DNA of 64,000 nucleotides from an uncultured Gammaproteobacteria bacterium. Its GTDB lineage: Bacteria > Patescibacteriota > Microgenomatia > Levybacterales > UBA12049. Each line of letters opens with the position of its first letter. The first letter of the stretch is position 1. Shown here one piece after another: positions 2,209-58,938 of this stretch. The position numbers and the translations under genes are program-made. The notes below the pieces were generated by a model. The model saw nothing but the letters and a program-made list of their open reading frames with translations, did no database searches and was not told the origin of the DNA. The stretch is from contig CAYQEE010000005.1 in NCBI GenBank assembly GCA_964416445.1, forward strand, positions 52,060 through 116,059. Reading direction: 5' to 3'.

Positions 2209-2235
2209 AGTTCAAATGTCTCTCAAGGGTAGCTT

Positions 2236-5080: not shown

Positions 5081-5102
5081 TTGTATATCATTATACCGAA
5101 CT

Positions 5103-6017: not shown

Positions 6018-6022
6018 AGACT

Positions 6023-17270: not shown

Positions 17271-17333
17271 ATATTGTCAAAACGGAGATTCTAAAGATTA
17301 ACAAAAATAACCCTGAAAAAATCAGTTGAATTG

Positions 17334-17782
17334 TGGAGATGTCCGGCAATGAACCGGAGTCCAAGAAATTATTTGGAAACGTCTACAAGCATAGTTGATT
17401 TATTAATGTCGCTCTTTATAATTCCAGTCAACAGGATATAAAAAGCCTAAGGTTTATTAAAATAGCATAAGAAGCTAAACCAATTTTTCTTATGTTTTCT
17501 CAACTGGTTTATGCTCATATACTTTGTTGAGAAGTTAGGTATATGAACAGGACATCAATTAATGTAATTAATTGATATAAGCGGAAGCAAAAGATTGCTT
17601 TCGCATTGCAAAAGCACCTGCTACTAACATTCCTGCCTCAGAAAGAGGAAGGGCTGTTTTCTCAGCTGCTTTTCGCACCATGCCGAAATAATCAGCATTT
17701 AGTGTTTGATTTGTTTTACGACTACTATCAAAGTCGGCTTGCCGTTTATCAAAGTGCTCTCTTGTCGAATCAGTTCATCCCC
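17334..17782 (-). ncRNA. ssrA: tmRNA (ssrA)
   Basis: On the minus strand, immediately 3' of smpB. The 5' end GGGGATGAACTGATTCGACAAG matches the conserved tmRNA start (E. coli GGGGCUGAUUCUGGAUUCGACGGG). The 3' end is ..GGACTCCGGTTCATTGCCGGACATCTCC-A. That gives a T-arm (tccgg/ccgga with a 7-nt TTCAUUG loop) and a 7-bp acceptor stem pairing with the 5' end through a G3-U70 wobble, the alanine identity pair. The tag ORF was not resolved with confidence. One candidate is UAGUC-GUA AAA CAA AUC AAA CAC UAA. Confidence 0.8.
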
Positions 17783-19532: not shown

Positions 19533-19538
19533 CGATTT

Positions 19539-21035: not shown

Positions 21036-21038
21036 TTA

Positions 21039-32964: not shown

Positions 32965-33978
32965 ATGAGTACCATGATAGCGTTTATTACGTATTTTTTA
33001 ATTCAGTTTAACTGGATCGATTGGGTTATTATCCTCGTGTCGATGTTTTACGTGATTGAAGGTTATGCAGTCGGAGCAATATCAGGTCTTTTTGATATTG
33101 CCAGCTTTTTGCTTTCTTTTGCTGCTGGGTTAAAAATGTATAAATTCTTTGGTGACTTTATTCACAATACAACACATCTTCCCTTAGGATTTTCTCATAT
33201 TAGCGCATTTGTCTTTGCTGCGGTTGTTACAGAAATGGTTTTACGGTTAGCGCAAGGGAAACTCACCGACCAAATACGAAAGTTTTCTTGGCTGAATGAT
33301 TCAATAGCTGCAAAAATTAACCGATTTCTTGGTATTATTCCCGGATTTTTTTCAGGATTAATTTTACTTGCATTTTTTCTGACAGTCTTGATTGTTTTGC
33401 CTGTATCGACATCCATAAAACAAGCAATTAATGCATCAAAACTCGGAAGTGTTCTTGTTGGACAAACACAGACGTACGAACGAAATTTAGCAGGTATTTT
33501 TGGTGGACGTCCTGATGATTTGTTGACGTTCTTTACTGTTGAGCCAGATACAAATGGAACAATTATACTTGATTTTAAAGTTGCTGATGGGATTATTGAT
33601 CAAGATGCAGAACAACAAATGCTTTATCTTGTTAATGCTGAGCGAGCAAAACAAAATTTACCGCAACTTGTCATGGATAACCAGTTGCGTATACTTGCCC
33701 GTTCACATAGCCAAGATATGTTAGCGAGAGGATATTTTTCTCATTATACCCCAGAGGGAAAGTCGCCATTTGATCGTATGAATGCTGCCGGAATTACATA
33801 CAATTATGCAGGAGAAAATTTAGCATTTGCCCAAAATGTTAATCTTGCGATGCAAGGACTTATGCAAAGTCCAGGACATCGAGCAAATATCCTTTCACCA
33901 AATTTTAAAAAAATTGGGATAGGTGTCATTAATGCAGGAGTTTATGGCGAAATGTTTAGTCAAGAATTTACTGACTAA
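32965..33978 (+). CDS. CvpA-like membrane domain fused to a CAP/SCP (PR-1-like) domain
   Basis: The N-terminal ~190 aa contain 4 TM helices resembling CvpA. The C-terminus carries YFSHYTPEG..AGENLAF..MQSPGHRANIL, typical of bacterial CAP/SCP (COG2340) domains. Confidence 0.6.
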   Translation: MSTMIAFITYFLIQFNWIDWVIILVSMFYVIEGYAVGAISGLFDIASFLLSFAAGLKMYKFFGDFIHNTTHLPLGFSHISAFVFAAVVTEMVLRLAQGKLTDQIRKFSWLNDSIAAKINRFLGIIPGFFSGLILLAFFLTVLIVLPVSTSIKQAINASKLGSVLVGQTQTYERNLAGIFGGRPDDLLTFFTVEPDTNGTIILDFKVADGIIDQDAEQQMLYLVNAERAKQNLPQLVMDNQLRILARSHSQDMLARGYFSHYTPEGKSPFDRMNAAGITYNYAGENLAFAQNVNLAMQGLMQSPGHRANILSPNFKKIGIGVINAGVYGEMFSQEFTD

Positions 33979-37094: not shown

Positions 37095-39548
37095 ATGACA
37101 CAAGTAATACAAACAAAGCAAACCAACTTTGCAGGTACCTTACGAGAGAAAGTATTTTTAGATAGATATGCTTTAAAAGGTAAAGATGGTGAATTATTAG
37201 AACATACTCCTGAAGAAATGTGGGCTCGTGTTGCAAGAGGGATAGCAAAGAACGAAAAACTTGCGGTTCGCAATAAATGGGAAAAAGAATTTTATCGCGT
37301 TATGGAAGATTTCAAGTTTGTTCCTGGAGGAAGAATTAACTCGGGAGCAGGTACTGGATATCAAGTAACCTATTTTAATTGTTTTGTCATACCCTCACCA
37401 AAAGATTCTCGAGAAGGTATTCTTGAATCACTGAAGCAGTTAGTAGAAATTCAATCACGTTCGGGAGGAGTTGGATTAAACTTATCATCCCTTCGTCCTC
37501 GAGGTGCTCGCGTACGTAAAGTAAATGGAACGTCATCAGGTCCAGTAACCTGGGCTGGATTATTCTCATATGCAACACATGATGTGGTGCAACAAGGCGG
37601 TACGCGGAGAGGTGCAACTATGTTAATGCTTTGGGATTGGCATCCTGATATCGAAGAATTTATTACCGTAAAACAAGATTTGTCAAAAATTAATGGTGCT
37701 AACCTTTCGGTTTGTATTTCTGATGCCTTTATGGAAGCAGTAAAAAAAGATGCAGACTGGGATTTAGTTTATCCCGATTTGGACGATCCTCACTATGATG
37801 AAAAATGGAGTGGAGAAATTGATCAATGGAGAGCGATGGGTGGTAAAGTAAAAGTATATAAAACAATCAAAGCACGTGAATTGTGGGATTTGATTTGTAC
37901 AGCAGCGTGGAGATCAGCAGAACCTGGTCTTCATTTCTTGGAACGATCGAATAAACGTTCTAATACATGGTATTTTGAGCGTCTTGTCGCGACAAACCCT
38001 TGTGGTGAACAGCCGTTGGGGCCATGGGCAGTATGTAATTTAGGTGCAATGAACTTGTCAGCATATGTCAAAGATGCAGATCTTGCAAAAGGACAAGCTG
38101 GTTGGTTTGATTATGATTCTTTTGGAAAAGATGTTCGGGTCGCAATGCGTTTTCTTGATAATGTTATTGATCAAACATATTATTTCTTTAAAGAAAATGA
38201 AAAATGTGCAAAAGAAATTCGAAGAACCGGTCTTGGTATCATGGGACTTGGCGATACCCTCATTAAAATGCACTTGAAGTATGGAGGAGAAGATTCTGTG
38301 CCTGTCCTTGAAAAGATCTTTAAAACGCTTCGAGATAATGCCTATGAAGCCTCTTCTGATTTGGCAAAAGAAAAAGGAGCTTTCCCACAATTTGATAAAG
38401 AGAAATATTTGGAAGGATATCATATTAAGGCACTTTCTCCACAGCTTCGCAAAAAAATTATAACAAATGGCATTCGCAATGCAGTTCTCTTAACTATTGC
38501 TCCTACGGGAACGACCTCATTGGTATCAGGAGTGACATCAGGTATTGAACCTGTCTATGAATTTACCTTTATTCGGCGAGATCGGACAGGTGAGCATACG
38601 ATTTATCATCCATTATATGAACAATGGGAAGCTGCACATCCTGAAGAGGATCGACCAGAGTATTTTGTAAGTGCCAATGATTTAACACCACTCGAACATG
38701 CTCGTGTGCAAGCAGTAGCTCAGGAATATATTGATTCTTCTATTTCAAAAACGGTCAATGGGCCGAACAAGGACTCCATTGATGATGTGAAGAACTTATA
38801 CATGATGGCGTATGATATGGGATTAAAGGGAGTTACCTATATGCGTGATGGGTCTCGTCAAGGTGTATTAGAGCGGGTTGAGGAAAAGAAAGAGAAAAAA
38901 GAAGAAGTTCCAGCCATTCAACATCAGCCAGCTCTTCCAATTATGCCAATTATTTCTCGTCCACAACGTATAGAAGGTGCAACGTATGAAGCGAAAACTC
39001 CTGTTGGAGATACGTTTATCACTATTAACCATACTGATAATAAAGAACCATTTGAAGTATTTATTACGATCGGAAAATCCGGCTCAGACGTTGGTGCTAT
39101 GGCTGAAGCAATTGGTAGACTTATTTCTCTTAATTTACGTTCCAATAGTATGCTTCCACCTCGAGAGCGAGTAAGACAAATTGTTGCACAATTAACGGGG
39201 ATTGGTGGTGCACGAAGTGTTGGATTTGGGCCAAACAGAGTTCGATCTCTTCCTGATGCAATTGCAAAGGTGCTTTCACAACATTTTGATTTCTCTGTCA
39301 ACGGGAAAGTCGTTGATAAGACTGTGCTTCAACAATTTAACAATACCAATGGACATGCGGCGTCAGATAATGGTAGTAAGGCTTCATCTCATTCAGAAAA
39401 TGCAAAACAACTGCTTTTAGAAGGTGGACAAGAAACACTTCACGCGAGTACCAATATGTTTGATATTTGTCCAGAATGTGGTGTGAATAGCTTTGCTTAT
39501 GAAGAAGGTTGCAAAAAATGTTATAGTTGCGGTTATTCAGAGTGCTAG
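37095..39548 (+). CDS. nrdJ: Ribonucleotide reductase, class II (adenosylcobalamin-dependent)
   Basis: Active-site region VATNPCGEQPLGPWAVCNLGAMNL. The length and order fit monomeric class II RNR. A C-terminal Zn-ribbon CPECG...CKKCYSCGYSEC is present. Confidence 0.85.
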   Translation: MTQVIQTKQTNFAGTLREKVFLDRYALKGKDGELLEHTPEEMWARVARGIAKNEKLAVRNKWEKEFYRVMEDFKFVPGGRINSGAGTGYQVTYFNCFVIPSPKDSREGILESLKQLVEIQSRSGGVGLNLSSLRPRGARVRKVNGTSSGPVTWAGLFSYATHDVVQQGGTRRGATMLMLWDWHPDIEEFITVKQDLSKINGANLSVCISDAFMEAVKKDADWDLVYPDLDDPHYDEKWSGEIDQWRAMGGKVKVYKTIKARELWDLICTAAWRSAEPGLHFLERSNKRSNTWYFERLVATNPCGEQPLGPWAVCNLGAMNLSAYVKDADLAKGQAGWFDYDSFGKDVRVAMRFLDNVIDQTYYFFKENEKCAKEIRRTGLGIMGLGDTLIKMHLKYGGEDSVPVLEKIFKTLRDNAYEASSDLAKEKGAFPQFDKEKYLEGYHIKALSPQLRKKIITNGIRNAVLLTIAPTGTTSLVSGVTSGIEPVYEFTFIRRDRTGEHTIYHPLYEQWEAAHPEEDRPEYFVSANDLTPLEHARVQAVAQEYIDSSISKTVNGPNKDSIDDVKNLYMMAYDMGLKGVTYMRDGSRQGVLERVEEKKEKKEEVPAIQHQPALPIMPIISRPQRIEGATYEAKTPVGDTFITINHTDNKEPFEVFITIGKSGSDVGAMAEAIGRLISLNLRSNSMLPPRERVRQIVAQLTGIGGARSVGFGPNRVRSLPDAIAKVLSQHFDFSVNGKVVDKTVLQQFNNTNGHAASDNGSKASSHSENAKQLLLEGGQETLHASTNMFDICPECGVNSFAYEEGCKKCYSCGYSEC

Positions 39549-39967: not shown

Positions 39968-40531
39968 ATGAAAATTTACACGAAAACAGGTGATAAAGGG
40001 CAAACATCTCTTTTTGATGGAACAAGAGTTCCAAAAGATAACATACGAGTTGAAACCTATGGCACAATCGATGAGTTGAATAGTTCGATTGGAGTAGCCC
40101 TTGCACAATTACCAAAGTTAGCAACGCTCAATAAAATGAGAATAGTACTTAAAAATATTCAGCATGATCTTTTCGAAATTGGTGCAGTATTAGCAAATCC
40201 TCAGGAAGAACCATCTCCTCACATAAAGCAAGCGCTCTTAAAACATATTAGTAGTTTTGAAAACTTCATTGATGAGATGACCAATGAACTTCCTGAACTT
40301 ATGAATTTTATTCTTCCTGGGGGAAGTGTTTCTGGTGCAAATTTGCAACTTACTCGAGCAGTAAGTCGGCGAGTTGAACGAAACGTTATTGCTCTTTCAA
40401 AACAAGAGCGAGTTGAGCGAGAAATCATTATGTATTGTAACCGGCTATCAGATTTATTATTTACGATGAGTAGGTTTTGCAACTTTAAAGAAGGAAAGAA
40501 AGAAACCCCCTGGGAAAAACAGCTTGGGTAA
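39968..40531 (+). CDS. ATP:cob(I)alamin adenosyltransferase, PduO/MMAB type
   Basis: MKIYTKTGDKGQTSLFDGTRVPKDNIRVETYGTIDELNSSIG is the PduO-type N-terminal signature. Confidence 0.85.
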   Translation: MKIYTKTGDKGQTSLFDGTRVPKDNIRVETYGTIDELNSSIGVALAQLPKLATLNKMRIVLKNIQHDLFEIGAVLANPQEEPSPHIKQALLKHISSFENFIDEMTNELPELMNFILPGGSVSGANLQLTRAVSRRVERNVIALSKQERVEREIIMYCNRLSDLLFTMSRFCNFKEGKKETPWEKQLG

Positions 40532-45534: not shown

Positions 45535-45711
45535 TTGTTCTCTTTGCAAAAATACGTTATAATTTTTTTATCAGAATTCCGAAGTCTGTGAAACTCAGAC
45601 GCTGTACCGCAACCGTTATAGTCGGGTCGCAGATTTTGGTGGGTATCACACGATCCTCGAGTTAAGGATGCGTCAAGAAAGGAACCTTCTCGATTAGGAG
45701 AAGGTTTTTTT
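45535..45711 (+). promoter_or_regulatory. Promoter plus ~140-nt structured leader ending in an intrinsic terminator (candidate attenuator or riboswitch)
   Basis: TTGTTC (45535-40), a 17-nt spacer, TATAAT (45558-63). The transcript should start near 45570. The terminator is CCTTCTC-gattag-GAGAAGG (45685-45704) followed by TTTTTTT (45705-11). The downstream ATG (45722) lies 11 nt after the T-run, with no room for another promoter. Confidence 0.55.
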
Positions 45712-45721
45712 GTGGAAAATT

Positions 45722-47617
45722 ATGTTTAATGAATCACCCAGGAGACAACAAACAGCAACACTTACTCGAAATGCCCAGATGATTGGTCTTTATCTTAATC
45801 TTTATAGAGTTCCTCTCAACAGGCCAGGTATAGCTCTTCCCAGATCACAAGAGGCAAGGCAGGATTTAATAGATGGTGGATTTACACCCGAACAGCAACA
45901 AATATTACAAAGACAACGATTACAATTTCGCGAAAACTATTTGACGATCGATGGCTCTCATGATCAATTGCCCCTACCATCTCATTCGCCGTTATTCACT
46001 GATGGACAATGGCAGCATTATGAGAAAATGCGAGAACAATATAGGTATGGATTATATGATACGGTACAAACTGCTTCTCCGACAGACACCTCGCAATTTA
46101 CCCAAGAACAATTAGAAAAGTTAGTAGAGCTACGAAATCAAATACGAAGAAGTACTCGTAATGAATTTGCGGGTGATATTTCACAAATTAAACAGTTACG
46201 AAAACAATGTGAAGCTGCAGGTATTACCTTTATTAAAAAAAATGAAGATGGAACAAATCAAAAAATAGCGTATGATCCTATCTTAGATGTCTTTAATTTA
46301 TTTAAAATACAGGCAGAAAATCCCAGTGCATTGAAAGATTTTCGTCGGGAAATCATCAAAAATTCAATTACAAATTTATTAGAACGGTATCGTTCAGATA
46401 GAAGTGTGCATCGATTTCAATTAAAAGAGGGAAAATTATTTTCAGAATATTTTCAAAACGAACCTTTTACAAAAATTATCGCTCGAGGAATTAGCCATCT
46501 TCAAGAAGAAGGATCATTAACACAAATACGCGAGAGAAGAGAATTAGAAGGATTTGAATGGAAGGAAAGATATCTTCAAGCCGCACCGATTGGAGCGATG
46601 GTGCTGTTTCTTTCTCCACCATACTTGGAGCGATATCCCGAAAAATTTGTTGATATCTCGATAAAAAAACAAGATCATCTCACCGGAGAAACATATATTG
46701 AAGAAATTCGGTTTAAATATGATAGCTTAACAGCTCATGATTATTGGAATATTGCCACAAGGCTTGATCCACGGTATTTTGATGGATTTATACCACCTTC
46801 TCTTGATGCAAATCCTAATGAGGTCATGACGCTTGATGCATGGTGCGTTGGAAAAGGAATTCCCATTGTGGGAGAATCTCCAGATGCAGTATTTAAATCA
46901 TTAATTGGATCAATTGATCCAGAAAAAGAAGCAAAGATAGATTTTATTTTAAAATGTTCAGAACATCCAATATTTGATTTCTATCTTCCAAGTTTGTTAG
47001 AATCACGATTTACAGCGAAGCAAGATTGGATACGATTAGGCAAAGCTTTTCAATCAATATTAACTTTCTCTCAAAATGCAAGAGATTTATATGATACTTA
47101 TGGTAATAATCATACAGTCTTGGATAGAATGGATTTTGAGACTGCAAAAAAACATGTCTATGCATATATTCAGAGTCAAAAGCATAAATCAGTAAGTAAT
47201 CTTGCTCTTCCGAATACAGTGGACATTTCTTATGAAAGGTATCTTCAACAGAAATTACCTCCAACACAGTTTCAAATGGATACGTTAAGCAAATTACAAG
47301 CAGAGGAGCTTGCTATTGGATGTGGAAGATCTGGGAATGTCCTTATTAATGAAGGTACTAATACTGTTTCTCAAGAAATGGAATCTCGAGCAATGGGTAG
47401 CCTTAATAGATTAAATAAATATAACACTTCGAAAGTGGTAAACAAAGAAAAGTCAGGAAGTAAAGAATCTGAATTATTCCAGTGTCCAGAATGTAATCAA
47501 TATTTTGTTCCTCCTGTTGGGGAATCATGTCCACCAAATAAATTGTCTATCGAAGGTTTCCTTGGATGTGGATATAGTAAAAAAGAAGCTATCGCTCAAG
47601 GAGCGGCTGTTTGTTAA
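45722..47617 (+). CDS. Large hypothetical protein (632 aa from ATG 45722) with a C-terminal Cys-cluster (zinc-ribbon-like)
   Basis: Long ORF (the track uses a TTG at 45710). The C-terminus carries FQCPECNQYF...SCPPNKLSIEGFLGCGYS. No recognisable enzymatic motif. Confidence 0.55.
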   Translation: MFNESPRRQQTATLTRNAQMIGLYLNLYRVPLNRPGIALPRSQEARQDLIDGGFTPEQQQILQRQRLQFRENYLTIDGSHDQLPLPSHSPLFTDGQWQHYEKMREQYRYGLYDTVQTASPTDTSQFTQEQLEKLVELRNQIRRSTRNEFAGDISQIKQLRKQCEAAGITFIKKNEDGTNQKIAYDPILDVFNLFKIQAENPSALKDFRREIIKNSITNLLERYRSDRSVHRFQLKEGKLFSEYFQNEPFTKIIARGISHLQEEGSLTQIRERRELEGFEWKERYLQAAPIGAMVLFLSPPYLERYPEKFVDISIKKQDHLTGETYIEEIRFKYDSLTAHDYWNIATRLDPRYFDGFIPPSLDANPNEVMTLDAWCVGKGIPIVGESPDAVFKSLIGSIDPEKEAKIDFILKCSEHPIFDFYLPSLLESRFTAKQDWIRLGKAFQSILTFSQNARDLYDTYGNNHTVLDRMDFETAKKHVYAYIQSQKHKSVSNLALPNTVDISYERYLQQKLPPTQFQMDTLSKLQAEELAIGCGRSGNVLINEGTNTVSQEMESRAMGSLNRLNKYNTSKVVNKEKSGSKESELFQCPECNQYFVPPVGESCPPNKLSIEGFLGCGYSKKEAIAQGAAVC

Positions 47618-47840: not shown

Positions 47841-48431
47841 ATGAATCATATGGGTACAACAACAAACCAGCAAGATCAATCGAATCAAACATCGCAAGGG
47901 AATACTATTGTTGAATTTCCTGATTTCAATACTGTTGCTAAAACACCAACGACACATCCCCTTGGACCAATGCCAGTAGTAAAAACTCCAACTCCAACTC
48001 CAACTCCAACTCCAACTCCAACTCCAACTCCAACTCCAACTAGTCAACCTACGAGCAGTTCAATTCAGAAGGAACTCGAACCAATGCCATCATTGATAGC
48101 AAAACCTGACATAATACACGAAACTGAACATGTTGTTGAGCTTGTTCCAGAAGTGAAAGCAGCAGGAGTGGAAGCTGTTTCAACTATTCCACAGTTAACA
48201 TTAGAAGAAAAAAAGATTGGTGTAGAATTAGCAAAGGAAGCAGCATTAGAGGAAAAGAAATTAGAGCCTGATTTAAAAGCACCAATATCAAAAATGGAGG
48301 CAGAAAAAATAACGAAAGGACAATTACTCTTTAAGGATACTTCAAATCCCATGTTGTGGCTAGCGATGCTTCTTTTGAGACAGATTCAAATTTTAACTAG
48401 ACAAAAACAGTCTAAAGAGAAAAAAATATGA
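47841..48431 (+). CDS. (TP)n-repeat protein with a charged helical middle and hydrophobic C-terminal segment
   Basis: 196 aa. [21 protein letters not shown] is encoded by a perfect (ACTCCA)n array. Then an E/K-rich region. Then a C-terminal LWLAMLLLRQIQIL. Its stop overlaps the next start (ATATGA). Confidence 0.55.
   Translation: MNHMGTTTNQQDQSNQTSQGNTIVEFPDFNTVAKTPTTHPLGPMPVVKTPTPTPTPTPTPTPTPTPTSQPTSSSIQKELEPMPSLIAKPDIIHETEHVVELVPEVKAAGVEAVSTIPQLTLEEKKIGVELAKEAALEEKKLEPDLKAPISKMEAEKITKGQLLFKDTSNPMLWLAMLLLRQIQILTRQKQSKEKKI
47985..48035 (+). repeat. Hexanucleotide microsatellite (ACTCCA)x8.5 encoding (TP)n
   Basis: A perfect tandem array read directly from the sequence. In-frame repeat length changes would alter the linker length without a frameshift. 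Confidence 0.9.
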
Positions 48432-50806
48432 TACCTGATCAATTATTTACCCCACAGGGGATGATAACCCTTTTTACTATTTTATCCGTCATTATTCTTA
48501 GTACTGTAGGAATTGGATTTTTGCTAATTTTTGGAGGATATTTACTCTTCTTGTATTATAAATATCGAGATCGAGAAAAAATCTCATTAGAGTCGACGCT
48601 CCTGTTAGTTGCGTTACCTCGAGATAATGAAATTAAAATAGATGCCGCAGAGCAAATGTTTGCTGGATTTGCTTCTATTCGTAAAAGCGGCAGGTTTGCA
48701 TTTCTTAATCCGCAACCACATATTTCCTTTGAAATCGTAGGGACACCTGGTGACATTCGGTTCTATGTTCATACGCCAAATAAATTACGTGATTTAGTAG
48801 AAAAGCAAATTAACGGAACGTATCCTGAAGCTGATATCCGTGTAGTTACTGCCGATGATCCGAAACAAAAAAATATCATTGGCAATGAATATAACTTCTT
48901 TAATGAAAACGGTAAAGTCGCATTTGCTCCTCTTAAATTAAAAGGTGCTTCGTATTCTCCGATTCGAATCTTTAAAGATTTGCCGGTAGATGGGTTATCC
49001 CTTATCACTTCAGTACTTGCAAAAATGGGTGAGGGAGAAGGCGCTGCCATCCAGATTCTTGTAAGTCCAGCAGATCCGAAATGGAAGAAATTAGGGCGAA
49101 AGTTTATTGCACGAACAAAAAAAGCAGAGTCAAATCCCGAAACAGCAAAATATGCAACAGATCCAAAAGAATTAGAGGGAATTGAAAATAAAATTAGTAA
49201 ACCAGGATTTAATGTTACCATTCGTGTTGTTGTTTGCTCTCCTAATAAAGAAATGGCTGATGCTCATTTAAGCAACATCCTGAGTGCTTATGGACAATTT
49301 AATGCAGCAAACTCATTTAAAAAAATGAAACCATTGTTAAAGAATTTGCTTGTCAAAGATTTTGTCTATCGTTTCTGGCCAATGCGCGGACAAACGTCTA
49401 TTATGACCAGTGAAGAGCTAGCAACAATTTTTCATTTCCCCAATAAAAGTATTACCACTCCTCAAATTTTTTGGTTAACTTCAAAGAGAGCACCTGCTCC
49501 TGCACAGATCTCAACTACTGGACTATATATTGGGAAAAGTATTTTTAGAGGTATTACAAAACCTGTTCATATTGGTCTGGATGATCGACGTCGGCATATG
49601 TATATTATCGGAAAAACAGGTACTGGAAAATCCGAGTTTTTGAAAGATATGATCCTGCAGGATATCCAAAATGGGGAGGGAGTTTGTGTAATTGATCCTC
49701 ACGGTGATTTAGTTGAAGGAATTCTTCCTCGAGTTCCTGCAAAGCGCGCTGAAGATGTTATTATTTTTGACCCTTCTGATACTTCTCGTCCAATGGGGTT
49801 AAATATTATGGAGGCTGATACTGAAGAACAACGACATTATGTCGTATCGTCCATTATTGGGCTATTTTATAAGTTATATGATCCAAACAATACTGGTATT
49901 GTTGGTCCTCGTTTAGAGCATGGTATTCGAAATGCAATGTTAACATGTATGTGTGAACCTGGTTCTACTTTTATTGAGGTCCAACGCGCATTGACAGATT
50001 CTGCTTTTGTACAAGAGATTCTCCCGAAGGTCACGGATCCAATTATCCGTAGATATTGGACAGATCAAATAGCGCAAACAAGCGACTTCCACAAATCGGA
50101 GGTACTTGACTATATTGTCTCTAAATTCGGTCGTTTTGTTACCAATAAGTTGATGCGTAATATTATTGGTCAATCGAAAAGTGCTTTTCAGTTCAGAGAG
50201 ATTATGGATCAACAAAAAATACTATTAGTTAATTTATCAAAAGGAAAAGTTGGAGAGGAAAACTCTAACTTTCTTGGATTGATTCTCGTTCCAAAGATTC
50301 TTGTTGCTGCAATGAGTAGACAAGATATTCCGCAAGATCAACGTAAAGACTTTTTCCTCTATGTTGATGAATTTCAGAATTTTGCAACACCTGATTTTGC
50401 CGTTATTCTTTCAGAAGCTCGTAAATATCGATTAAATCTTATTGTTGCAAATCAGTTTACTGGACAGATGCAGGAAGAAGTTAAAAATGCTGTTTTTGGT
50501 AACGTTGGATCCATTGTCTCCTTCCGTGTCGGTGTTCAGGATGCAAACTATTTACAACACGAGTTTCAACCCACCTTTAATGAGGGAGATTTAATTAACA
50601 TAGATAGATATAACGCGTATATGCGAACTCTTGTCAATGGAGAACCAGTGAGTCCTTTCTCTGTCGATATGACGCGAGATATGACAAAAGAAAAAGCATT
50701 GGAAAATCCTCGAATCGCAGAATTAATCAAAGAGCTCTCTCGATTGAAATACGCGAAAGACGTTAAACAAGTTGAGGTTGAAATTTCCACTCGTGCAAAA
50801 CTTTAA
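48428..50806 (+). CDS. Membrane-anchored FtsK/HerA/TraG-superfamily P-loop ATPase, most similar in layout to type IV coupling proteins (VirD4/TraG/TrwB-like)
   Basis: A 33-aa N-terminal hydrophobic hairpin, then a ~330-aa domain. Walker A IIGKTGTGKSEFL is followed by VCVIDPHGDL and FDPSD..GLNIME. Walker B LYVDEFQNF lies about 250 aa later. That long spacing fits T4CP with an all-alpha insertion, not the FtsK motor. Start coupled to the upstream gene. Confidence 0.6.
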   Translation: MIPDQLFTPQGMITLFTILSVIILSTVGIGFLLIFGGYLLFLYYKYRDREKISLESTLLLVALPRDNEIKIDAAEQMFAGFASIRKSGRFAFLNPQPHISFEIVGTPGDIRFYVHTPNKLRDLVEKQINGTYPEADIRVVTADDPKQKNIIGNEYNFFNENGKVAFAPLKLKGASYSPIRIFKDLPVDGLSLITSVLAKMGEGEGAAIQILVSPADPKWKKLGRKFIARTKKAESNPETAKYATDPKELEGIENKISKPGFNVTIRVVVCSPNKEMADAHLSNILSAYGQFNAANSFKKMKPLLKNLLVKDFVYRFWPMRGQTSIMTSEELATIFHFPNKSITTPQIFWLTSKRAPAPAQISTTGLYIGKSIFRGITKPVHIGLDDRRRHMYIIGKTGTGKSEFLKDMILQDIQNGEGVCVIDPHGDLVEGILPRVPAKRAEDVIIFDPSDTSRPMGLNIMEADTEEQRHYVVSSIIGLFYKLYDPNNTGIVGPRLEHGIRNAMLTCMCEPGSTFIEVQRALTDSAFVQEILPKVTDPIIRRYWTDQIAQTSDFHKSEVLDYIVSKFGRFVTNKLMRNIIGQSKSAFQFREIMDQQKILLVNLSKGKVGEENSNFLGLILVPKILVAAMSRQDIPQDQRKDFFLYVDEFQNFATPDFAVILSEARKYRLNLIVANQFTGQMQEEVKNAVFGNVGSIVSFRVGVQDANYLQHEFQPTFNEGDLINIDRYNAYMRTLVNGEPVSPFSVDMTRDMTKEKALENPRIAELIKELSRLKYAKDVKQVEVEISTRAKL

Positions 50807-50849: not shown

Positions 50850-50922
50850 GGGCCAGTAGTTCAGCGGCTAGAACATCTATCTTATACATAGAATGTCGAA
50901 GGTTCGAGTCCTCCCTGGCCCA
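50850..50922 (+). tRNA. tRNA-Ile with anticodon UAU (reads AUA)
   Basis: Acceptor GGGCCAG/CTGGCCC-A. D-stem gttc/gaac. Anticodon stem tctat/ataga with loop cTTATAc (U33, A37). T-loop TTCGAGT. 73 nt. A TACAAT -10-like box lies upstream. Confidence 0.8.
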
Positions 50923-50988
50923 CATGTCAAATTATTTTATTGCAATTATTGAGAAATATATCTGCTCATTTTGTTATACTAATTACCA

Positions 50989-54826: not shown

Positions 54827-55444
54827 CTATTTTTGCAGGAGTTTTTGGTAATAGGCATCCTGATAAGGAAAATAGGAAAAGGTATTTTGAGTTGTACCCA
54901 AATAGCCTAGATAATGGTTGGCAACAAAGACATAATTTTCTGCATTCCACATCTGCATATCGGTATCGGTGCCAAGCGTGACTCGTTGACGGTCAAGGGT
55001 ATAGGCGTGCGAATTATCATAAAAATTGATGGTACATGGCTTTTTACAAAGGTTTTTCTTTAAATAGAGGGCAGTTTTCTGCAGGGTAGATTGTGAAGTG
55101 TCAGCGGAGGTATAAAGGTAATAATAGTTCTCTAATTGTTGGAATTCTTCGTGCTCTAATTGACGAAACTGCTCATTTTTGTTGGGTAACGTGTTTGGGT
55201 ATGCTGATGCAATCTGTTCATCCTGAACAAGCATATCATTTGGTTGAGGGAGAATATGTTGATGAATAAACACAAGCAGAAACCCATAAAAGATGCCCGT
55301 CATGAGCGAAAAAATAAGTCGAGAGAGGTTACTTCTGGGAGGGAGTTGTAAATACGCATTCAGCTGTTTTTTGTGCTTATAACTATAATAGATGCCAAAT
55401 TGAAGAACCGTAAGCATACAAATTGTTAAAAGTACGTATAGCAT
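54827..55444 (-). CDS. Membrane-anchored hypothetical protein
   Basis: 205 aa, two N-terminal TMs, and a Tyr-rich C-terminal domain. Confidence 0.35.
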   Translation of the reverse strand: MLYVLLTICMLTVLQFGIYYSYKHKKQLNAYLQLPPRSNLSRLIFSLMTGIFYGFLLVFIHQHILPQPNDMLVQDEQIASAYPNTLPNKNEQFRQLEHEEFQQLENYYYLYTSADTSQSTLQKTALYLKKNLCKKPCTINFYDNSHAYTLDRQRVTLGTDTDMQMWNAENYVFVANHYLGYLGTTQNTFSYFPYQDAYYQKLLQK

Positions 55445-55464: not shown

Positions 55465-57573
55465 TTATCCTTCAGGTACAATTTCTGAAATTTGAATATA
55501 CTCCTTTCCATTAGCATCGACTGCCTTTACCCCTTTTACCTGAGCAAACCCCTCTTTTAGTGTTGTTCCTTGATATATTCCAAGCAAATGGTCATTATCA
55601 TCGATAAGTGTTACTTGCATAGAATTGTTTGTTTGATCAACGACACCCGGCTTTATATAACATTCTTTATCGAAACTTGTATCGGTATTTACCGCAGGGA
55701 CTGTCGCTGACTGTCTTCGAGTTTGCTGTGCTTGATCTATTGGAGATGATTGTGGAGTTTCTTTTTTCCCTTTCCCAAATACTTTTTGAAATAATTTACT
55801 TCGAATAATGCCAAAGATAATTACTAAGCAAAAGATAATAAATATAAGCAGATCAAGTATTTTACTTAATCCAACAGCATTATTACTCATTGCTGCAATA
55901 AATGTTTTATAGAGAGGTTGTTGACTCTGGGAAGGAGTTGGTGATAACTGTTTTTGGACTATCTTTGTTGGAGAAGGTGGTGTTGTTGGTGTGACAACAA
56001 GAACATTTGTTGGGGAAATTGTTGGGACTGTTGTAGATATGGTTGTTGGAGTGGGTACTGATGTCGGAGTTGGAGTAGCAGAAGGTGTTGCTGTAGGTGT
56101 AGGTGTAGGTGTAGGAAGGATATTATTGATAGTATCGTATTGCTTGAGGCCAATGAGGAATAAGTTGTAATCAATACCATCTATGCTCCCATTGTCATTT
56201 AAATCAGCTCCACTTTTATTGGTACATGATGATGAAGTAATTTTACTTCCAAAACAATTAATGATGTCATTATAGTCATTAACATTAATAACATCGTCAC
56301 CATTTGGTGTGGGGTTAATATCCCCAGGGATAAGATTGAGTGGAGGAAGCTGTGTTGGTTGGCCATTGGAAAGAGTAAATATTGAAGTATTATCCATAGG
56401 ATTAATTGCTTCTTGACGTAAATATTGGTTGAGCTTCACAACAAACTGATATTGTCCTGCAGGAACATTTCCTAAATTAAAGTTTGGATTGACAAAGTTT
56501 CTTGAAACAGGATCGTACGTTACCATATCCGTTGCAACTGAAACTGCTGAAACAGATGCGCTAAACGGATTATCAGTTGGCTGATACATTGCAATACTTG
56601 CCGAACGTGTTGGATGAAGTGGCTGTGGGTTTCCACCGTCGCTAATTCCAGGCAAAACAAGAGAAAGGCTAATAGTAAGAATACTTGGATTTTGAGCACT
56701 TACTGATGTGGTTATTGTTGGTGTTGGTATCGTATTACTCGGTGTTGGTGAAAGAGTTTGGGTAACTTTAGGTGAAGGATTACCTAAGGTTTGTGTAGAA
56801 GAAATGTTACTTGCAAGGAGTGAACTTGTGGGAGTTGAAATAGTCGTTGGGGTTGCTGTGGTGGAGTTAACAGTTGGTGCCTGTGTCTTTACTGTTGGGG
56901 TAGGCGTTGGTTTTTGTATTGTTGGGATTGGTGTTGCTGTTGGATTTTGATGAATAATAATTGAGCTTACTTGGGGAGTTGTTGGGCTCGGAAAGGACCT
57001 TGCTTGGGTTGGTATTGTGGTTGGAACTAACGTAGGTACTGTAGTAGGTACTGAAGTTGGTATTGCTGTCGGAATTGCCGTGGGTACATTTGTAGGAGTT
57101 GGTGTAGGGGTTGGTTTGGGAGATGGAGTAGGGGTTGGGAGAGGTGTTGGTGTTGGTGTTGGTGTTGGTGTTGGTGTTGGTGTTGGTGTTGGAGAAGGGT
57201 TTGCTGAACAAATATTTGCGATATAAAAAGGAGAACTTTGTAAAAGTCTGCCATCTGTTTGATGATTACCTGGCATAACAGAGGTCACATCAGTACCACA
57301 TTGATGCCCCATATGCAGATTGGATCGGGAGGCACCTGGAGGAAGATACACCTGATTGTTCCAAATATAGAGACATCGACTATCAGCCTTTACTTGTGCA
57401 GTAGTCATACAGGTACTACTTGCCGCAACATAAAAATGGAATACGTATGCTATTGCAATGTTGACAAAAAACAAAAGTAAAAGAATATGAAATCCATATT
57501 CTAAAACAAAGGACGTGTAAAGTGCTTGTTTTCGTTTCGTTTTTTTCATATTATGATTTTGCATGGAATCCAA
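55465..57573 (-). CDS. Surface protein with PT-repeat linkers, a Cys/His-containing N-terminal module and a dockerin-type double Ca-binding repeat
   Basis: Signal-anchor, then a C..H..C..H..C module, then (PT)n. A long T/P/S-rich region follows. Then [22 protein letters not shown] and [20 protein letters not shown]. The second repeat strongly matches the dockerin type I consensus DxNxDGxIDxxDyxll. Then another TPTPT linker and a C-terminal TM. Confidence 0.6.
57144..57192. repeat. Hexanucleotide microsatellite (GTGTTG)x8 encoding (PT)n on the minus strand
   Basis: Perfect tandem array. Flanked by degenerate GTnGGn repeats (57017-57140). A second short array (GTGTAG)x4 sits near 56093-56115. 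Confidence 0.9.
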
Positions 57574-57636
57574 TAAAAATAATAATAAAAAAGATTATCC
57601 AAAAAACGATAATTGAATAAAAAACAAGTTTTTTAA

Positions 57637-58938
57637 TCATAGAATTGAAAATTCTTCTGTGTGAATATTCTTTTTCGGAACATGCAGAAGAAGTAATTGT
57701 TTTTTGAGACTTTGCATCATAGGTGGAGGGCCACAAATAAAAATATCTTTTCCAGATAACTCACCACTTATTTTTTGAATGCTTTCAGCAGTCAATCTCC
57801 CTTGACTTTTTGAGAAGCAAGGAGTAATTCTGAAATTAGTATGCGTCGTTGCTATTTGTTGTAATTCTTGAAGGTAAACAGCTTCAGCTTCTGATCGTAC
57901 CGAATAAAAACAATCAATATGGAAGTCATCACCAAGTGTTTTTGCCATACTCAAAAAAGGGGTTATTCCAATTCCTCCGGCAATCCAAATTTGCTTTTTT
58001 CCATGAGAATGTTGATAGGAAAATCTACCAAACGCTCCTTCAAGAGATGCTTTCATACCGGGTTTGAGATTTTTTAGTTTTGAGGTAAAGTCACCTTCAG
58101 CTTTTACGGATATTTGTAGTTGGTTTTGTGTATTTGCAGAGCTGACCGAAAACGGATGTGTCTCATTTGTTATTCCTTCACCATGAAAGCTAAGAAAAAC
58201 AAATTGCCCAGGCGTAAATTTCATTTGCTTATTTTCAGGTGTAAGAGTGATTTCAATAACGTTATCTTGAAGAGGTTTTACATCTGAAACGGCGTAATGA
58301 TATTGAGGAATTAAAAACCTTCCAAAAACTGTTTTATATAAAAATGCACCCAAGCCTATACTGAAAATAAGTAACATATAATTTCTCATTAAAGGGTAAG
58401 AAGAAATATCACTCGTTACGAAAAAACCATGAATTGTAGCAAGGAAAAAAACTAGTCCTAAAAACTTATGAGTAAATCTCCAAAATTCATAGGGAAGCGA
58501 GACAAAAAAAGTAAGAATCATGAGAGCCATAAAAAAGAGAAATGCAGCAATGCCTAAGTTTATTGTCCAATCAACTCCAGGTAACATATAAACAGATGCG
58601 GCTTTCCATGAATACGTCGCAACATCAAATGTGAGGAGAAGAGGATGAATAAGTAAAACAATGAGTGCAGTTCCACCAAGAATATGATGCGCTATGTATA
58701 CACGATTCATTCCTCCAAAATAATCTTCAAAAAGCTTTAATCGGACACTCAGTATAAGATTTAGACAAAACATTGTTGCGCCAACAAGGCCAAAAATTTC
58801 TCCAAGACTCCGAAATATGTTATAGTTAGTCGCAAAACGTAAACTTAGTGGTTGTACGGCTAACATCCATGGAAGAAGTGGTGATAAAGATAAGCAAATC
58901 AACATAGGCCATCCTAATTGATATTTTTTAAGAAGCAT
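57637..58938 (-). CDS. NOX/ferric-reductase-family flavocytochrome (6-TM heme domain + FAD/NAD(P)H dehydrogenase domain)
   Basis: N-terminal 6 TMs with spaced His (HHILGG…HPLLLT; ATIHGFF). The C-terminal domain carries HPFSVSS (FAD-binding, cf. HPFT) and IWIAGGIGITPFLSM (NAD(P)H-binding). 433 aa, the size of SpNOX-type bacterial NOX. Confidence 0.7.
   Translation of the reverse strand: MLLKKYQLGWPMLICLSLSPLLPWMLAVQPLSLRFATNYNIFRSLGEIFGLVGATMFCLNLILSVRLKLFEDYFGGMNRVYIAHHILGGTALIVLLIHPLLLTFDVATYSWKAASVYMLPGVDWTINLGIAAFLFFMALMILTFFVSLPYEFWRFTHKFLGLVFFLATIHGFFVTSDISSYPLMRNYMLLIFSIGLGAFLYKTVFGRFLIPQYHYAVSDVKPLQDNVIEITLTPENKQMKFTPGQFVFLSFHGEGITNETHPFSVSSANTQNQLQISVKAEGDFTSKLKNLKPGMKASLEGAFGRFSYQHSHGKKQIWIAGGIGITPFLSMAKTLGDDFHIDCFYSVRSEAEAVYLQELQQIATTHTNFRITPCFSKSQGRLTAESIQKISGELSGKDIFICGPPPMMQSLKKQLLLLHVPKKNIHTEEFSIL

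What the first reader, a model, noticed from the sequence alone, without database searches (positions are those of the whole stretch)
55465..57573. Dockerin-type module and PT-linkers on a membrane-anchored surface protein
The segment [20 protein letters not shown] is preceded by [21 protein letters not shown]. Together they reproduce the duplicated Ca-binding loop-helix of type I dockerins. The module is embedded between long (PT)n and T/P/S-rich linkers, with a Cys/His-rich N-terminal domain and a C-terminal TM. No cohesin-like partner is visible in the window. A dockerin here would imply surface-complex assembly or host attachment, which is not classic cellulosome biology.
Basis: partly seen in the sequence, partly recalled or inferred. 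Interest (0 to 1): 0.6.

Follow-up and report, generated by a model that had tools for sequence, protein, structure and literature searches.

The report
Dockerin-tagged membrane cytochrome b5-like protein
The dockerin is real, but it is an accessory "plug" (an X-module plus dockerin pair) on a membrane-tethered, outward-facing cytochrome b5-like protein that is encoded next to an NADPH-oxidase-like membrane reductase in an ultra-small (Patescibacteria-type) bacterium, which points to a surface-docked electron-export system and not to cellulose degradation.

Summary
ORF 55465-57573 (-) encodes a 702-aa protein laid out as N-terminal TM, Cys/His domain, 171-aa PT linker, beta-sandwich, dockerin, PT linker, TM and cytoplasmic tail.

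**Dockerin.** The segment alone passes Pfam Dockerin_1 (27.2 bits, cut-off 22.9). The whole protein scores 21.9 because of composition bias and a 4-residue insertion (NPTP) in Ca loop 1. With the preceding beta-sandwich it forms a rigid dyad (AlphaFold pLDDT 94.9). The only significant structural matches are type II X-module-dockerin dyads of cellulosomal scaffoldins, so it is type II-like and not type I. The ~180-aa dyad is a widespread Patescibacteria cassette. Relatives cluster it with cohesin genes. The window holds no cohesin.

The Cys/His domain is a divergent cytochrome b5-like domain:
- Both axial His are invariant.
- Its profile hits genuine Cyt-b5 proteins (E 1e-8 to 1e-10).
- It lies next to a NOX/ferric-reductase-like gene in 10 of 11 informative loci.
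- It is fused to that transmembrane domain in distant relatives.

**Best reading.** A NOX-driven, outward-facing haem carrier on a long tether, docked to surface cohesins.

**Status.** The dockerin itself is a new member of a known kind. The redox-plus-dockerin combination appears undescribed. Haem, Ca2+ and cohesin binding are untested.

The parts
57637..58938 (-). NOX/FRE-like reductase gene (433 aa), immediately upstream on the same strand. It has a Ferric_reduct 6-TM di-haem domain plus FAD- and NAD-binding domains.
   Evidence: Pfam PF01794 43.9 bits, PF08022 52.3 bits, PF00175 51.8 bits. Bis-His pairs H84/85-H98 and H157-H170, and an HPFS motif. Adjacent to b5-like genes in 10 of 11 informative loci.
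55465..57573 (-). Target ORF, 702 aa: TM, b5-like domain, PT linker, X-module, dockerin, PT linker, TM, cytoplasmic tail.
57421..57495 (-). N-terminal signal-anchor TM (residues 27-51), preceded by a K/R-rich stretch (N-terminus inside).
   Evidence: Hydropathy and charge counts. Polar N/Y/H positions in the helix are moderately conserved in the family.
57205..57420 (-). Divergent cytochrome b5-like domain (residues 52-123). Invariant H87, H90, H104, C67, C92 and C122; C55 is nearly invariant.
   Evidence: AF2 pLDDT 76.8. Foldseek top 50 are all cytochrome b5. The family profile hits PF00173 proteins at E 1e-8 to 1e-10. hhalign places H87 and H104 on the b5 axial His.
56692..57204 (-). PT/T/P/S-rich linker 1 (residues 124-294, 65% P+T+S), the longest among 35 relatives.
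57143..57192 (-). Perfect hexanucleotide repeat, 8.3 copies, 100% matches, encoding (PT)n within linker 1.
   Evidence: Tandem Repeats Finder
56326..56691 (-). X-module-like beta-sandwich (residues 295-416) packed against the dockerin.
   Evidence: AF2 pLDDT 94.9, pTM 0.89. Foldseek matches to XDoc dyads span both domains. The PDB profile alignment runs from the last X-module strands into the dockerin.
56134..56325 (-). Dockerin (residues 417-480). Loop 1 is D418-I-[NPTP][10 protein letters not shown]433; loop 2 is D457[11 protein letters not shown]468. Invariant C440 and C450 lie between the two loop-helix repeats.
   Evidence: Pfam PF00404 27.2 bits on the segment. Invariant columns. Loop alignment.
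55882..56133 (-). PT/T/P/S-rich linker 2 (residues 481-564).
55795..55863 (-). C-terminal TM (residues 571-593), followed by a K/R-rich stretch (C-terminus inside).
55468..55680 (-). Conserved ~70-aa cytoplasmic C-terminal domain (residues 632-702) of unknown fold.
   Evidence: Aligned with P0122, P0123, P0127, P0128, P0134, P0138, P0144, P0245, P0250 and P0263. tblastn 37% identity to the L004 orthologue. No Pfam hit in this region.
54827..55444 (-). Downstream co-oriented gene (205 aa, 20-bp gap): two N-terminal TMs plus a conserved domain with an invariant CxxxC. It accompanies the XDoc-plus-C-terminal-TM forms.
   Evidence: Homologues directly downstream in L002-L005. No Pfam or PDB match.

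Best explanation
The gene encodes a bitopic-at-both-ends membrane protein whose large middle part lies outside the cell.

**Redox part.** Next to the membrane sits a divergent cytochrome b5-like domain. It most likely binds haem b through H87 and H104 and is stabilised by conserved cysteines. It is the extracytoplasmic partner of the NOX/ferric-reductase-like enzyme encoded immediately upstream. The proposed electron path is cytoplasmic NAD(P)H, then FAD, then the two transmembrane haems, then the b5-like domain, then an external acceptor (Fe(III)/Cu(II), O2 or a docked partner).

**Docking part.** A 171-residue PT tether leads to a rigid X-module-dockerin dyad of the type II kind. This dyad would bind, Ca2+-dependently, a cohesin on another surface protein encoded elsewhere in the genome. 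That would fix or extend the looped protein within a cohesin-dockerin surface network.

**Shown here:** the domain identities, the topology signals, the gene linkage and domain fusions, and the existence of cohesin/XDoc gene clusters in related Patescibacteria.

**Inferred:** haem binding, the direction of electron flow, Ca2+ binding by the interrupted loop 1, and cohesin binding.
For: **Dockerin/XDoc**
- PF00404 scores 27.2 bits on the segment and 33.9 bits without the insertion.
- Ca-loop residues are invariant in 102 homologues.
- The AF2 dyad has pLDDT 94.9 and pTM 0.89.
- Foldseek gives only two hits at E <= 1e-3, both type II XDoc dyads: 5k39_B at 6.3e-5 and 4wi0_B at 7.5e-5.
- The family profile hits CipA XDoc 2b59_B at E 1.6e-6.
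- The window module aligns ungapped with ScaA XDoc 4u3s_B, including through its longer loop 1.

**Cohesin partners exist in the lineage**
- 39 of 121 proteins in the module set (120 hits plus the window protein) carry an N-terminal cohesin (PF00963 26.5 bits in P0042; profile hit to ScaB cohesin 3ghp_A at E 4e-7).
- Locus L015 encodes, in order, PL8 lyase-XDoc, a stand-alone cohesin, cohesin-XDoc and a further XDoc protein.
- P0121 combines a cohesin, two b5-like domains and a dockerin in one chain.

**b5-like domain**
- The top 50 Foldseek hits are all cytochrome b5, with probability up to 0.99 and TM about 0.6 for the best hits.
- The exhaustive profile search hits bona fide PF00173 proteins: P0256 at 1.1e-10, P0257 at 3.9e-10, P0260 at 1.4e-8 and P0261 at 2.7e-8.
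- The alignments place invariant H87 and H104 on the two axial His.

**Link to NOX**
- The NOX-like gene is adjacent in 10 of 11 informative loci.
- Natural fusions of the b5-like domain to a Ferric_reduct TM domain exist (P0233 29.6 bits, above cut-off; P0262, P0231, P0234 and P0241 weaker).
- The NOX-like protein has both bis-His pairs.

**Topology and transcription**
- K/R-rich flanks lie on the cytoplasmic side of both TMs.
- No terminator-like site occurs on the minus strand between the three genes.
Against: - The whole-protein Dockerin_1 score is 1 bit below Pfam's cut-off.
- Loop 1 has a 4-aa insertion, seen in only one other of the 111 aligned family modules, which could abolish one Ca site.
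- No cohesin was found in the 64-kb window or in any b5-XDoc locus. The rest of the genome is unavailable, and the protein is absent from the searched collection.
- The window protein itself gets no Pfam Cyt-b5 hit.
- The b5-like profile finds nothing in PDB by sequence.
- hhalign probability is only 12% (P 0.0024).
- The Foldseek E-values for b5 are about 1e-2, on a model of pLDDT 77.
- Helix alpha3 of the b5 haem pocket is deleted, so haem binding is uncertain.
- An extra invariant His (H90) and four Cys could instead indicate a metal site.
- One locus (P0002) has no NOX neighbour.
Confidence: 0.6

Rival explanations
1. The XDoc dyad does not bind a cohesin. It acts as a rigid, Ca2+-stabilised stalk or spacer, or it binds a non-cohesin ligand such as a host-cell glycan or protein. 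In that case the protein is an adhesin-like or purely structural surface loop carrying the b5-like domain.
For: No cohesin in the window or in the b5-XDoc loci. Loop 1 is interrupted by the NPTP insertion. In Patescibacteria a dockerin-domain protein has been speculated to target host glycans (PMC10633639). The X-module also resembles transthyretin-like and adhesin Ig folds at weak scores.
Against: The dyad matches cohesin-binding type II XDocs specifically. An equally long loop 1 exists in the ScaA XDoc that was crystallised in a cohesin complex (4u3s_B). Cohesin and XDoc genes are clustered in related genomes, and 39 of 121 proteins in the module set carry a cohesin.
Confidence: 0.25
2. The N-terminal Cys/His domain is not a haem electron carrier. 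It is a Cys/His metal-binding (Cu/Fe/Zn) or haem-scavenging domain, and the operon is an assimilatory metal reductase or uptake system in which this domain presents the metal to the reductase.
For: Four conserved Cys and a third invariant His (H90). The b5 haem-pocket helix alpha3 is deleted. The fusion proteins carry MopE-type Cu-binding repeats between this domain and the Ferric_reduct TM domain. MsrQ-like/NAD-binding systems have been proposed as assimilatory iron reductases (PMC8238504).
Against: Both b5 axial His positions are invariant. The profile reaches genuine HPGG-type Cyt-b5 domains at E 1e-8 to 1e-10. The fold search returns only cytochromes b5. No metal transporter gene lies in the operon.
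Confidence: 0.25
3. The dockerin-like peptides are a chance or low-complexity resemblance (D/N-rich loops) in a PT-rich protein, or the ORF is not a real gene.
For: The whole-protein Pfam score is just below the cut-off. The protein is absent from the 5.8-billion-protein collection.
Against: The segment alone passes the cut-off. A 137-bit family HMM hit. 138 homologues with the same ~180-aa unit. A high-confidence fold. Conserved synteny.
Confidence: 0.01

Closest known systems
Type II X-module-dockerin (XDoc) dyads of cellulosomal scaffoldins: C. thermocellum CipA (PDB 2b59, 3kcp, 5g5d), 5k39_B, and Acetivibrio cellulolyticus ScaA (4u3s, 4wi0)
   Same: An Ig-like beta-sandwich lies immediately N-terminal to, and packs on, a duplicated F-hand dockerin. 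These are the best sequence-profile and the only significant fold matches. Loop 1 has the same length as in ScaA XDoc. In cellulosomes these dyads mediate Ca-dependent attachment to cell-surface cohesins (PMC12484212).
   Different: The dyad is not at the C-terminus of a cohesin-bearing scaffoldin. It is internal, between two PT linkers in a protein anchored by TMs at both ends. The cargo is a redox domain and not a set of enzyme-binding cohesins. Two invariant Cys lie between the repeats. The organism is a Patescibacteria-type bacterium with no cellulosome. Identity is only about 15%.
Patescibacteria 'dockerin type I domain-containing proteins' (NCBI names for P0029, P0030 and P0065; the essential dockerin-domain protein SEML1_0315 of Southlakia epibionticum, PMC10633639)
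   Same: The same ~180-aa beta-sandwich plus dockerin cassette, at 28-39% identity, in 100+ proteins from Levybacteria/Levyibacteriota, Saccharimonadales and 'Patescibacteria group'.
   Different: Most carry the cassette at the C-terminus behind a cohesin, GH16, phosphoesterase, lectin or similar domain. Only a subset (49 of 162 b5-like proteins) combines it with the b5-like domain. The window protein adds the longest linker, a loop-1 insertion, a second TM and a cytoplasmic domain. I did not test whether SEML1_0315 belongs to this cassette.
Cytochrome b5-like haem/steroid-binding domain (Pfam PF00173), especially secreted bacterial forms with HPGG...CG-D/E-x-T...H (for example P0256, P0261)
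   Same: The fold, the order of secondary-structure elements, both axial His, and the CG(T)D(V)T motif.
   Different: HPGG is replaced by H-x-G-H. There is a six-residue deletion (helix alpha3) and four conserved Cys. The window protein has no direct Pfam hit.
[quoted passage not shown] 2021, PMC8238504) and bacterial NOX such as SpNOX (PMC11564096)
   Same: A Ferric_reduct di-haem TM domain fused to FAD/NAD(P)H domains and encoded next to a small membrane-tethered extracytoplasmic redox protein.
   Different: The partner here is a b5-like (presumed haem) domain and not an ApbE-flavinylated FMN-binding domain. No ApbE or FMN_bind was found among the window ORFs scanned (>=150 aa, plus the neighbouring 113-aa ORF). 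That paper reports flavinylation as strikingly under-represented in CPR. A dockerin is attached.

Membership tests
Dockerin (Pfam PF00404) | Significant match to the family HMM | tested here: met
   Isolated segment 27.2 bits, E 4.4e-6 (cut-off 22.9). The whole protein scores 21.9 bits, E 2.1e-4, just below the cut-off. Homologues reach 35.2 bits.
Dockerin (Pfam PF00404) | Two tandem ~22-residue repeats, each a 12-residue Ca-binding loop (D/N at positions 1, 3, 5, 9, 12) followed by a helix | tested here: inconclusive
   Loop 2 is canonical (D457, N459, N461, D465, D468). Loop 1 keeps D418, N424, D426, N430 and D433 but has a 4-aa insertion after position 2. An equally long loop exists in 4u3s_B. 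The helices are predicted.
Dockerin (Pfam PF00404) | Ca2+-dependent binding to a cohesin | not testable with these tools
   No cohesin in the window. Cohesins are present and clustered with XDoc genes in related genomes.
Type II X-module-dockerin dyad | An Ig-like X-module directly N-terminal to the dockerin and packed against it as one rigid unit | tested here: met
   AF2 pLDDT 94.9, pTM 0.89 for residues 295-485. The only Foldseek hits at E <= 1e-3 are 5k39_B and 4wi0_B, aligned over 182-193 columns.
Type II X-module-dockerin dyad | Closer in sequence to type II XDocs than to type I dockerins | tested here: met
   Family profile against 2b59_B gives E 1.6e-6, against 3kcp_A 5.1e-6. Type I dockerins give E >= 2e-3.
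Type II X-module-dockerin dyad | Located at the C-terminus of a cohesin-bearing scaffoldin and anchoring it to a cell-surface cohesin | tested here: not met
   The dyad is internal, followed by a PT linker, a TM and a cytoplasmic tail. The protein has no cohesin.
Cytochrome b5-like domain (Pfam PF00173) | Direct match to the Pfam model | tested here: not met
   No PF00173 hit for the window protein at E <= 10. One family member, P0249, has a weak hit (16.4 bits).
Cytochrome b5-like domain (Pfam PF00173) | Detectable homology to bona fide members | tested here: met
   The profile of 18 family sequences hits proteins that score 67-394 bits on PF00173, at library-wide E 1.1e-10 to 2.7e-8.
Cytochrome b5-like domain (Pfam PF00173) | Two axial His ligands in the conserved positions | tested here: met
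   H87 and H104 are invariant in 18-20 sequences and align with the HPGG His and the second axial His.
Cytochrome b5-like domain (Pfam PF00173) | b5 fold | tested here: inconclusive
Cytochrome b5-like domain (Pfam PF00173) | Binds haem b | not testable with these tools
   Needs spectroscopy of the expressed domain.
MsrQ-like/NOX-like extracytosolic electron-transfer system (PMC8238504) | PF01794 TM protein with bis-His haem sites and a cytoplasmic NAD(P)H-binding domain | tested here: met
   PF01794, PF08022 and PF00175 all above cut-off. His pairs at 84/85-98 and 157-170.
MsrQ-like/NOX-like extracytosolic electron-transfer system (PMC8238504) | Clustered ApbE and FMN-binding (flavinylated) extracytoplasmic partner | tested here: not met
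   No ApbE or FMN_bind in the cluster or in any window ORF scanned. The partner is the b5-like protein.

The most novel reading that the evidence does not exclude
Patescibacteria of the Microgenomates type assemble a 'redox cellulosome'. A NOX-like enzyme exports electrons from NAD(P)H to b5-like haem domains. These domains sit on long PT tethers and are plugged by X-dockerin/cohesin pairs into a surface scaffold. Some family members carry two or three b5-like domains in tandem, and one combines a cohesin, two b5-like domains and a dockerin. Such a scaffold would give these fermentative, respiration-poor cells an extracellular electron sink towards a mineral, oxygen or the host cell, organised by a protein-docking system so far known only for carbohydrate-active enzymes.
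Probability: 0.2. Interest if true: 0.85.

Novelty: new variant of a known kind. Interest (0 to 1): 0.6.

Why it matters
Cohesin-dockerin docking is textbook biology for plant-cell-wall degradation, and non-cellulosomal dockerins are mostly unexplained. This case has three features of interest.

1. The dockerin sits on a protein whose other domain and gene neighbours point to a definite, testable activity: trans-membrane electron export by a NOX-like enzyme to a b5-like haem carrier.
2. The organisms concerned (CPR/Patescibacteria) are thought to lack respiratory chains, and their surface biology underlies their episymbiotic lifestyle.
3. The finding supplies a small family (about 175 clusters at 50% identity among 1.84 billion representatives) that current Pfam models do not recognise as Cyt-b5, together with its likely redox partner.

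If confirmed, the known bacterial extracytosolic electron-transfer modules (flavinylated FMN-binding partners) would gain a haem-b5 version. Cohesin-dockerin pairs would also be shown to organise redox proteins.

Tried and rejected
1. A single-sequence search with residues 295-486 found only one relative and not the protein itself. The profile search was needed.
2. NCBIfam gave nothing useful. The Pfam DUF4834 hit (24.4 bits, below cut-off) covers only the TM and basic stretch, so I treated it as TM similarity.
3. I searched for a cohesin in the window in two ways. A Patescibacteria-specific cohesin HMM run with --max over all 620 stop-to-stop ORFs >=40 aa gave a best E of 0.3. Pfam on the ORFs >=150 aa (three overlapping or short ones not scanned) plus the neighbouring 113-aa ORF gave nothing either.
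4. No cohesin was found next to any b5-XDoc gene in the 14 related loci L001-L014.
6. The downstream 205-aa protein was considered as a possible non-cohesin partner or a cohesin. It has no Pfam or PDB similarity and I left it unassigned.
7. I considered that the N-terminal hydrophobic segment is a cleaved signal peptide. The roughly 25-30-residue hydrophobic span and the conserved polar residues within it argue for a retained anchor. Cleavage after VAA/SS cannot be excluded.
8. The GTDB representative genomes do not contain this genome. The best hit is 47% identical in the b5-like domain, from a Levyibacteriota MAG, so a whole-genome cohesin census was impossible.
9. No paper in the library links cytochrome b5 with Patescibacteria, Microgenomates, Levybacteria or Woesebacteria.
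Full report
**1. The observation**

The minus-strand ORF 55465-57573 encodes 702 residues. Hydropathy, composition and charge give this layout:

| Residues | Feature |
|---|---|
| 10-15 | K/R-rich N-terminus |
| 27-51 | TM helix |
| 52-123 | Cys/His domain (4 Cys, 3 His) |
| 124-294 | PT/T/P/S linker, 65% P+T+S |
| 295-416 | beta-rich domain |
| 481-564 | second PT linker |
| 571-593 | TM helix |
| 594-702 | tail, with a K/R-rich start |

- Positive charges flank both TMs on the same (cytoplasmic) side, so residues 52-570 are predicted to be outside the cell.
- Linker 1 contains a perfect 8.3-copy hexanucleotide repeat at 57143-57192.
- The window is an ordinary low-GC (35-40%) bacterial chromosome piece with tRNAs, a tmRNA, MutS/MutL, PBPs, GAPDH and similar genes. 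Many of its large ORFs have no Pfam match.
- The named homologues of the target are from Candidatus Levybacteria/Levyibacteriota, Woesebacteria, Saccharimonadales and 'Patescibacteria group'. I infer a Microgenomates-type Patescibacteria (CPR) genome.
- The protein itself is not in the 5.8-billion-protein collection, and the genome is not among the GTDB representatives.

**2. Is it a dockerin?**

Yes.
- Pfam Dockerin_1 scores 21.9 bits (E 2.1e-4) on the whole protein, 1 bit below the cut-off.
- It scores 27.2 bits (E 4.4e-6) on the isolated segment, and 33.9 bits when four residues of loop 1 are removed in silico. The shortfall therefore comes from composition correction in a PT-rich protein plus one insertion.
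- A profile search recovered 138 relatives.
- An HMM of the shared unit matches nearly all of them end to end over about 180 residues, which is the beta-rich domain plus the dockerin.
- In a 102-sequence alignment the following are invariant or >=90% conserved: G417, D418, D426, D433, Y434, N435, C440, C450, D457, D460, G462, D468, Y469, N470, L471 and F472.
- Loop 2 is canonical. Loop 1 reads D-I-[NPTP][10 protein letters not shown], which is the family consensus DxNxDNxhNxxD with a 4-residue insertion. Among the 111 aligned family modules only one other (P0068) has such an insertion.

**3. What kind of dockerin?**

- AlphaFold2 on residues 295-485 with the 102-sequence alignment gives pLDDT 94.9 and pTM 0.89. 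The model is a seven-to-eight-stranded sandwich packed on a helical dockerin.
- Foldseek against the PDB gives only two hits at E <= 1e-3, and both are type II cohesin-bound X-module-dockerin dyads: 5k39_B at 6.3e-5 and 4wi0_B at 7.5e-5. They align over 182-193 columns.
- By sequence, the window segment's best PDB hit is the A. cellulolyticus ScaA XDoc 4u3s_B (E 6.7e-4). The alignment runs ungapped through loop 1, which is equally long there.
- The family profile hits the C. thermocellum CipA XDoc 2b59_B at 1.6e-6 and 3kcp_A at 5.1e-6. Type I dockerins reach only E >= 2e-3.
- The module is therefore a type II-like XDoc dyad. In cellulosomes this kind mediates Ca-dependent attachment to cell-surface cohesins (PMC12484212).

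**4. Partners**

- No cohesin is encoded in the window. A Patescibacteria-specific cohesin HMM over all ORFs >=40 aa gave a best E of 0.3. Pfam found none in the larger ORFs scanned.
- None lies next to b5-XDoc genes in the 14 related loci L001-L014.
- Cohesins are nevertheless part of this protein family's world. 39 of 121 proteins in the module set carry an N-terminal cohesin. P0042 scores 26.5 bits on PF00963, and the profile hits ScaB cohesin 3ghp_A at E 4e-7.
- A cohesin-profile search found about 200-aa leader-plus-cohesin proteins.
- In locus L015 (GCA_964637955.1) four adjacent genes encode PL8 lyase-XDoc, a stand-alone cohesin, cohesin-XDoc and another XDoc protein.
- A cohesin-XDoc docking system therefore plausibly operates in these bacteria. 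The window protein's partner would be encoded elsewhere in the genome.

**5. The rest of the protein changes the story**

*The Cys/His domain.*
- It is 41-58% identical among 19 relatives. Q60, D64, R66, C67, L68, Y69, H87, H90, C92, G93, D95, T97, P101, H104, P115 and C122 are invariant.
- Its AlphaFold model (pLDDT 76.8) returns only cytochromes b5 as the top 50 PDB matches, with best E 1.3e-2, probability up to 0.99 and TM about 0.6 for the best hits.
- An exhaustive HMMER search of 1.84 billion representatives finds a small family of 175 proteins at E <= 1e-3. The domain almost always sits at residues ~40-112, right after an N-terminal TM.
- The tail of that hit list consists of proteins that Pfam calls Cyt-b5 with 67-394 bits: P0256, P0257, P0260 and P0261, at library-wide E 1.1e-10 to 2.7e-8.
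- The HMM and hhalign alignments place H87 on the HPGG histidine and H104 on the second axial histidine. They also show a six-residue deletion (helix alpha3) and a shared CG-x-D/E-x-T motif.
- I therefore read the domain as a divergent cytochrome b5-like, probably haem-binding, domain. It is not recognised directly by Pfam or by sequence search of the PDB.

**6. Gene context**

*The upstream gene.*
- The gene immediately upstream on the same strand (57637-58938) encodes a Ferric_reduct TM domain with FAD_binding_8 and NAD_binding_1 domains.
- It has both bis-His haem motifs, so it is a NOX/FRE-like trans-membrane NAD(P)H oxidoreductase.

*Linkage to b5-like genes.*
- Such a gene lies next to, or one gene from, a b5-like gene in the window, L001-L006, L008, L011/L012 and the P0085 contig.
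- It is absent only at L013/L014. Three further loci end at the contig edge. That makes 10 of 11 informative loci.
- Several loci have two or three b5-like paralogues around one NOX-like gene.

*Fusions.* In distant members the b5-like domain is fused to a Ferric_reduct TM domain. P0233 scores 29.6 bits, above the cut-off. P0262, P0231, P0234 and P0241 score below it. MopE-type Cu-binding repeats often lie between the two domains.

*Operon structure.*
- A co-oriented 205-aa two-TM protein with an invariant CxxxC follows the target after 20 bp.
- It accompanies every form that has an XDoc plus a C-terminal TM (window, L002-L005). It matches nothing known.
- No terminator-like site separates the three genes on the minus strand.

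**7. Mechanism proposed**

*Shown:* domain identities, topology signals, linkage and fusion, and the existence of cohesin-XDoc clusters in the lineage.

*Inferred:*
- Electrons pass from NAD(P)H through FAD and the two TM haems of the NOX-like protein to the b5-like domain on the outer face, and on to an external acceptor.
- The XDoc dyad, held on a 171-residue PT tether and returned to the membrane by a second tether and TM, docks onto a cohesin-bearing surface protein.
- The base form of the family is a short TM-b5-linker-TM protein. The XDoc is an accessory present in 49 of 162 members.
- Linker 1 varies from 9 to 155 residues (median 51, n=35) and is longest here.
- A conserved ~70-residue cytoplasmic domain follows the second TM in a subfamily that includes the window protein. 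Its role is unknown.

**8. Comparison with what is known**

- Dockerin-domain proteins are already annotated in Patescibacteria. NCBI names appear for P0029, P0030 and P0065, and one dockerin-domain protein is essential in Southlakia epibionticum (PMC10633639). The dockerin as such is therefore a new member of a known kind.
- The closest described redox analogue is the MsrQ-like system of Meheust et al.: PF01794 with an NAD-binding domain and a flavinylated FMN-binding partner, proposed to act in extracytosolic electron transfer or iron assimilation (PMC8238504). Here the partner is b5-like, and no ApbE or FMN_bind is present.
- I found no paper linking cytochrome b5 to these phyla.
- The combination of a NOX-like enzyme, a tethered b5-like domain and a type II-like XDoc therefore appears to be an undescribed variant.

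**9. Caveats**

- All functional statements are computational.
- Haem binding is uncertain, because a pocket helix is deleted and there are an extra invariant His and four Cys.
- Ca binding by loop 1 is uncertain.
- The cohesin partner is not identified.
- Two fold libraries were unavailable.

Noticed in passing
window 57637-58938 (-): NOX/ferric-reductase-like gene (Ferric_reduct TM plus FAD and NAD domains, both bis-His pairs) directly upstream of the target. This gene pair is conserved in 10 of 11 informative related loci, and the two domains are fused in distant relatives.
   Followed up: yes
window 54827-55444 (-): A 205-aa protein with two N-terminal TMs and a conserved domain carrying an invariant CxxxC (C133, C137). 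It always lies downstream of the XDoc-plus-C-terminal-TM forms (window, L002-L005). It has no Pfam or PDB similarity.
   Followed up: partly
window 55468-55680 (-) (residues 632-702 of the target): A conserved ~70-aa cytoplasmic C-terminal domain with consensus ..YFVK....D...G.WV.LTDD.G...GYY.G....GF..VKG........YI.ISEI.P. It is shared by at least 10 representative proteins, and its fold and function are unknown.
   Followed up: partly
window 45569-45635 (+), and ORFs 45710-47617, 47841-48431, 48428-50806 (+): An AdoCbl-II (cobalamin) riboswitch (39.3 bits, cut-off 36.5) lies upstream of a 635-aa ORF with no Pfam family. A 196-aa unknown ORF and a TrwB/HerA-like ATPase follow. This may be an uncharacterised B12-regulated operon. 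A cobalamin adenosyltransferase gene and a class II-type ribonucleotide reductase gene lie upstream at 39968-40531 and 37095-39548.
   Followed up: no
P0256, P0257, P0260, P0261, P0121 (proteins): Secreted or membrane proteins with 2-6 tandem cytochrome b5-like domains separated by T/P-rich linkers. P0121 combines a weak cohesin, two b5-like domains and a dockerin. These suggest chains of b5 modules outside the cell.
   Followed up: partly
L015 4826-11105 (GCA_964637955.1 contig CAZWXQ010000007.1): A gene cluster encoding PL8 polysaccharide lyase-XDoc, a ~200-aa leader-plus-cohesin protein, a cohesin-XDoc protein and a further XDoc protein. It looks like a minimal cohesin-dockerin system in a Patescibacteria-type genome.
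   Followed up: partly
window 1-64000; strongest at 56001-58000: GC skew is positive in nearly every 2-kb bin, and the cumulative skew rises from 0 to 2.4 across the window. The peak (0.305) is over the PT-linker coding region, where ACC/CCA codons on the minus strand make the plus strand G-rich.
   Followed up: no
window 17331-17782 (-); 50850-50923 (+): A tmRNA gene (100.8 bits) that spans 452 nt for a 374-position model, so it carries insertions. Also a tRNA-Ile with a TAT anticodon.
   Followed up: no
window 31-8215 and 18300-22868: Several large ORFs (725, 562, 332, 730, 410, 498 and 609 aa) have no Pfam match at E <= 1e-5. They are candidate lineage-specific, possibly surface, proteins. 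None matched the cohesin or XDoc HMMs.
   Followed up: partly
window 32965-33978 (+); L011 6505-7929 (-): The window encodes a CvpA (Colicin V production) membrane domain fused to a CAP/cysteine-rich secretory domain. In related locus L011 a CAP-domain protein carries the XDoc cassette next to the NOX/b5 cluster.
   Followed up: no
consensus of alignment A2; P0267, P0270 and related proteins: Cohesin and cohesin-XDoc proteins share a conserved leader ending in Q-x-x-R-S-R-A just after the hydrophobic segment. This may be a lineage-specific processing or sorting motif.
   Followed up: no
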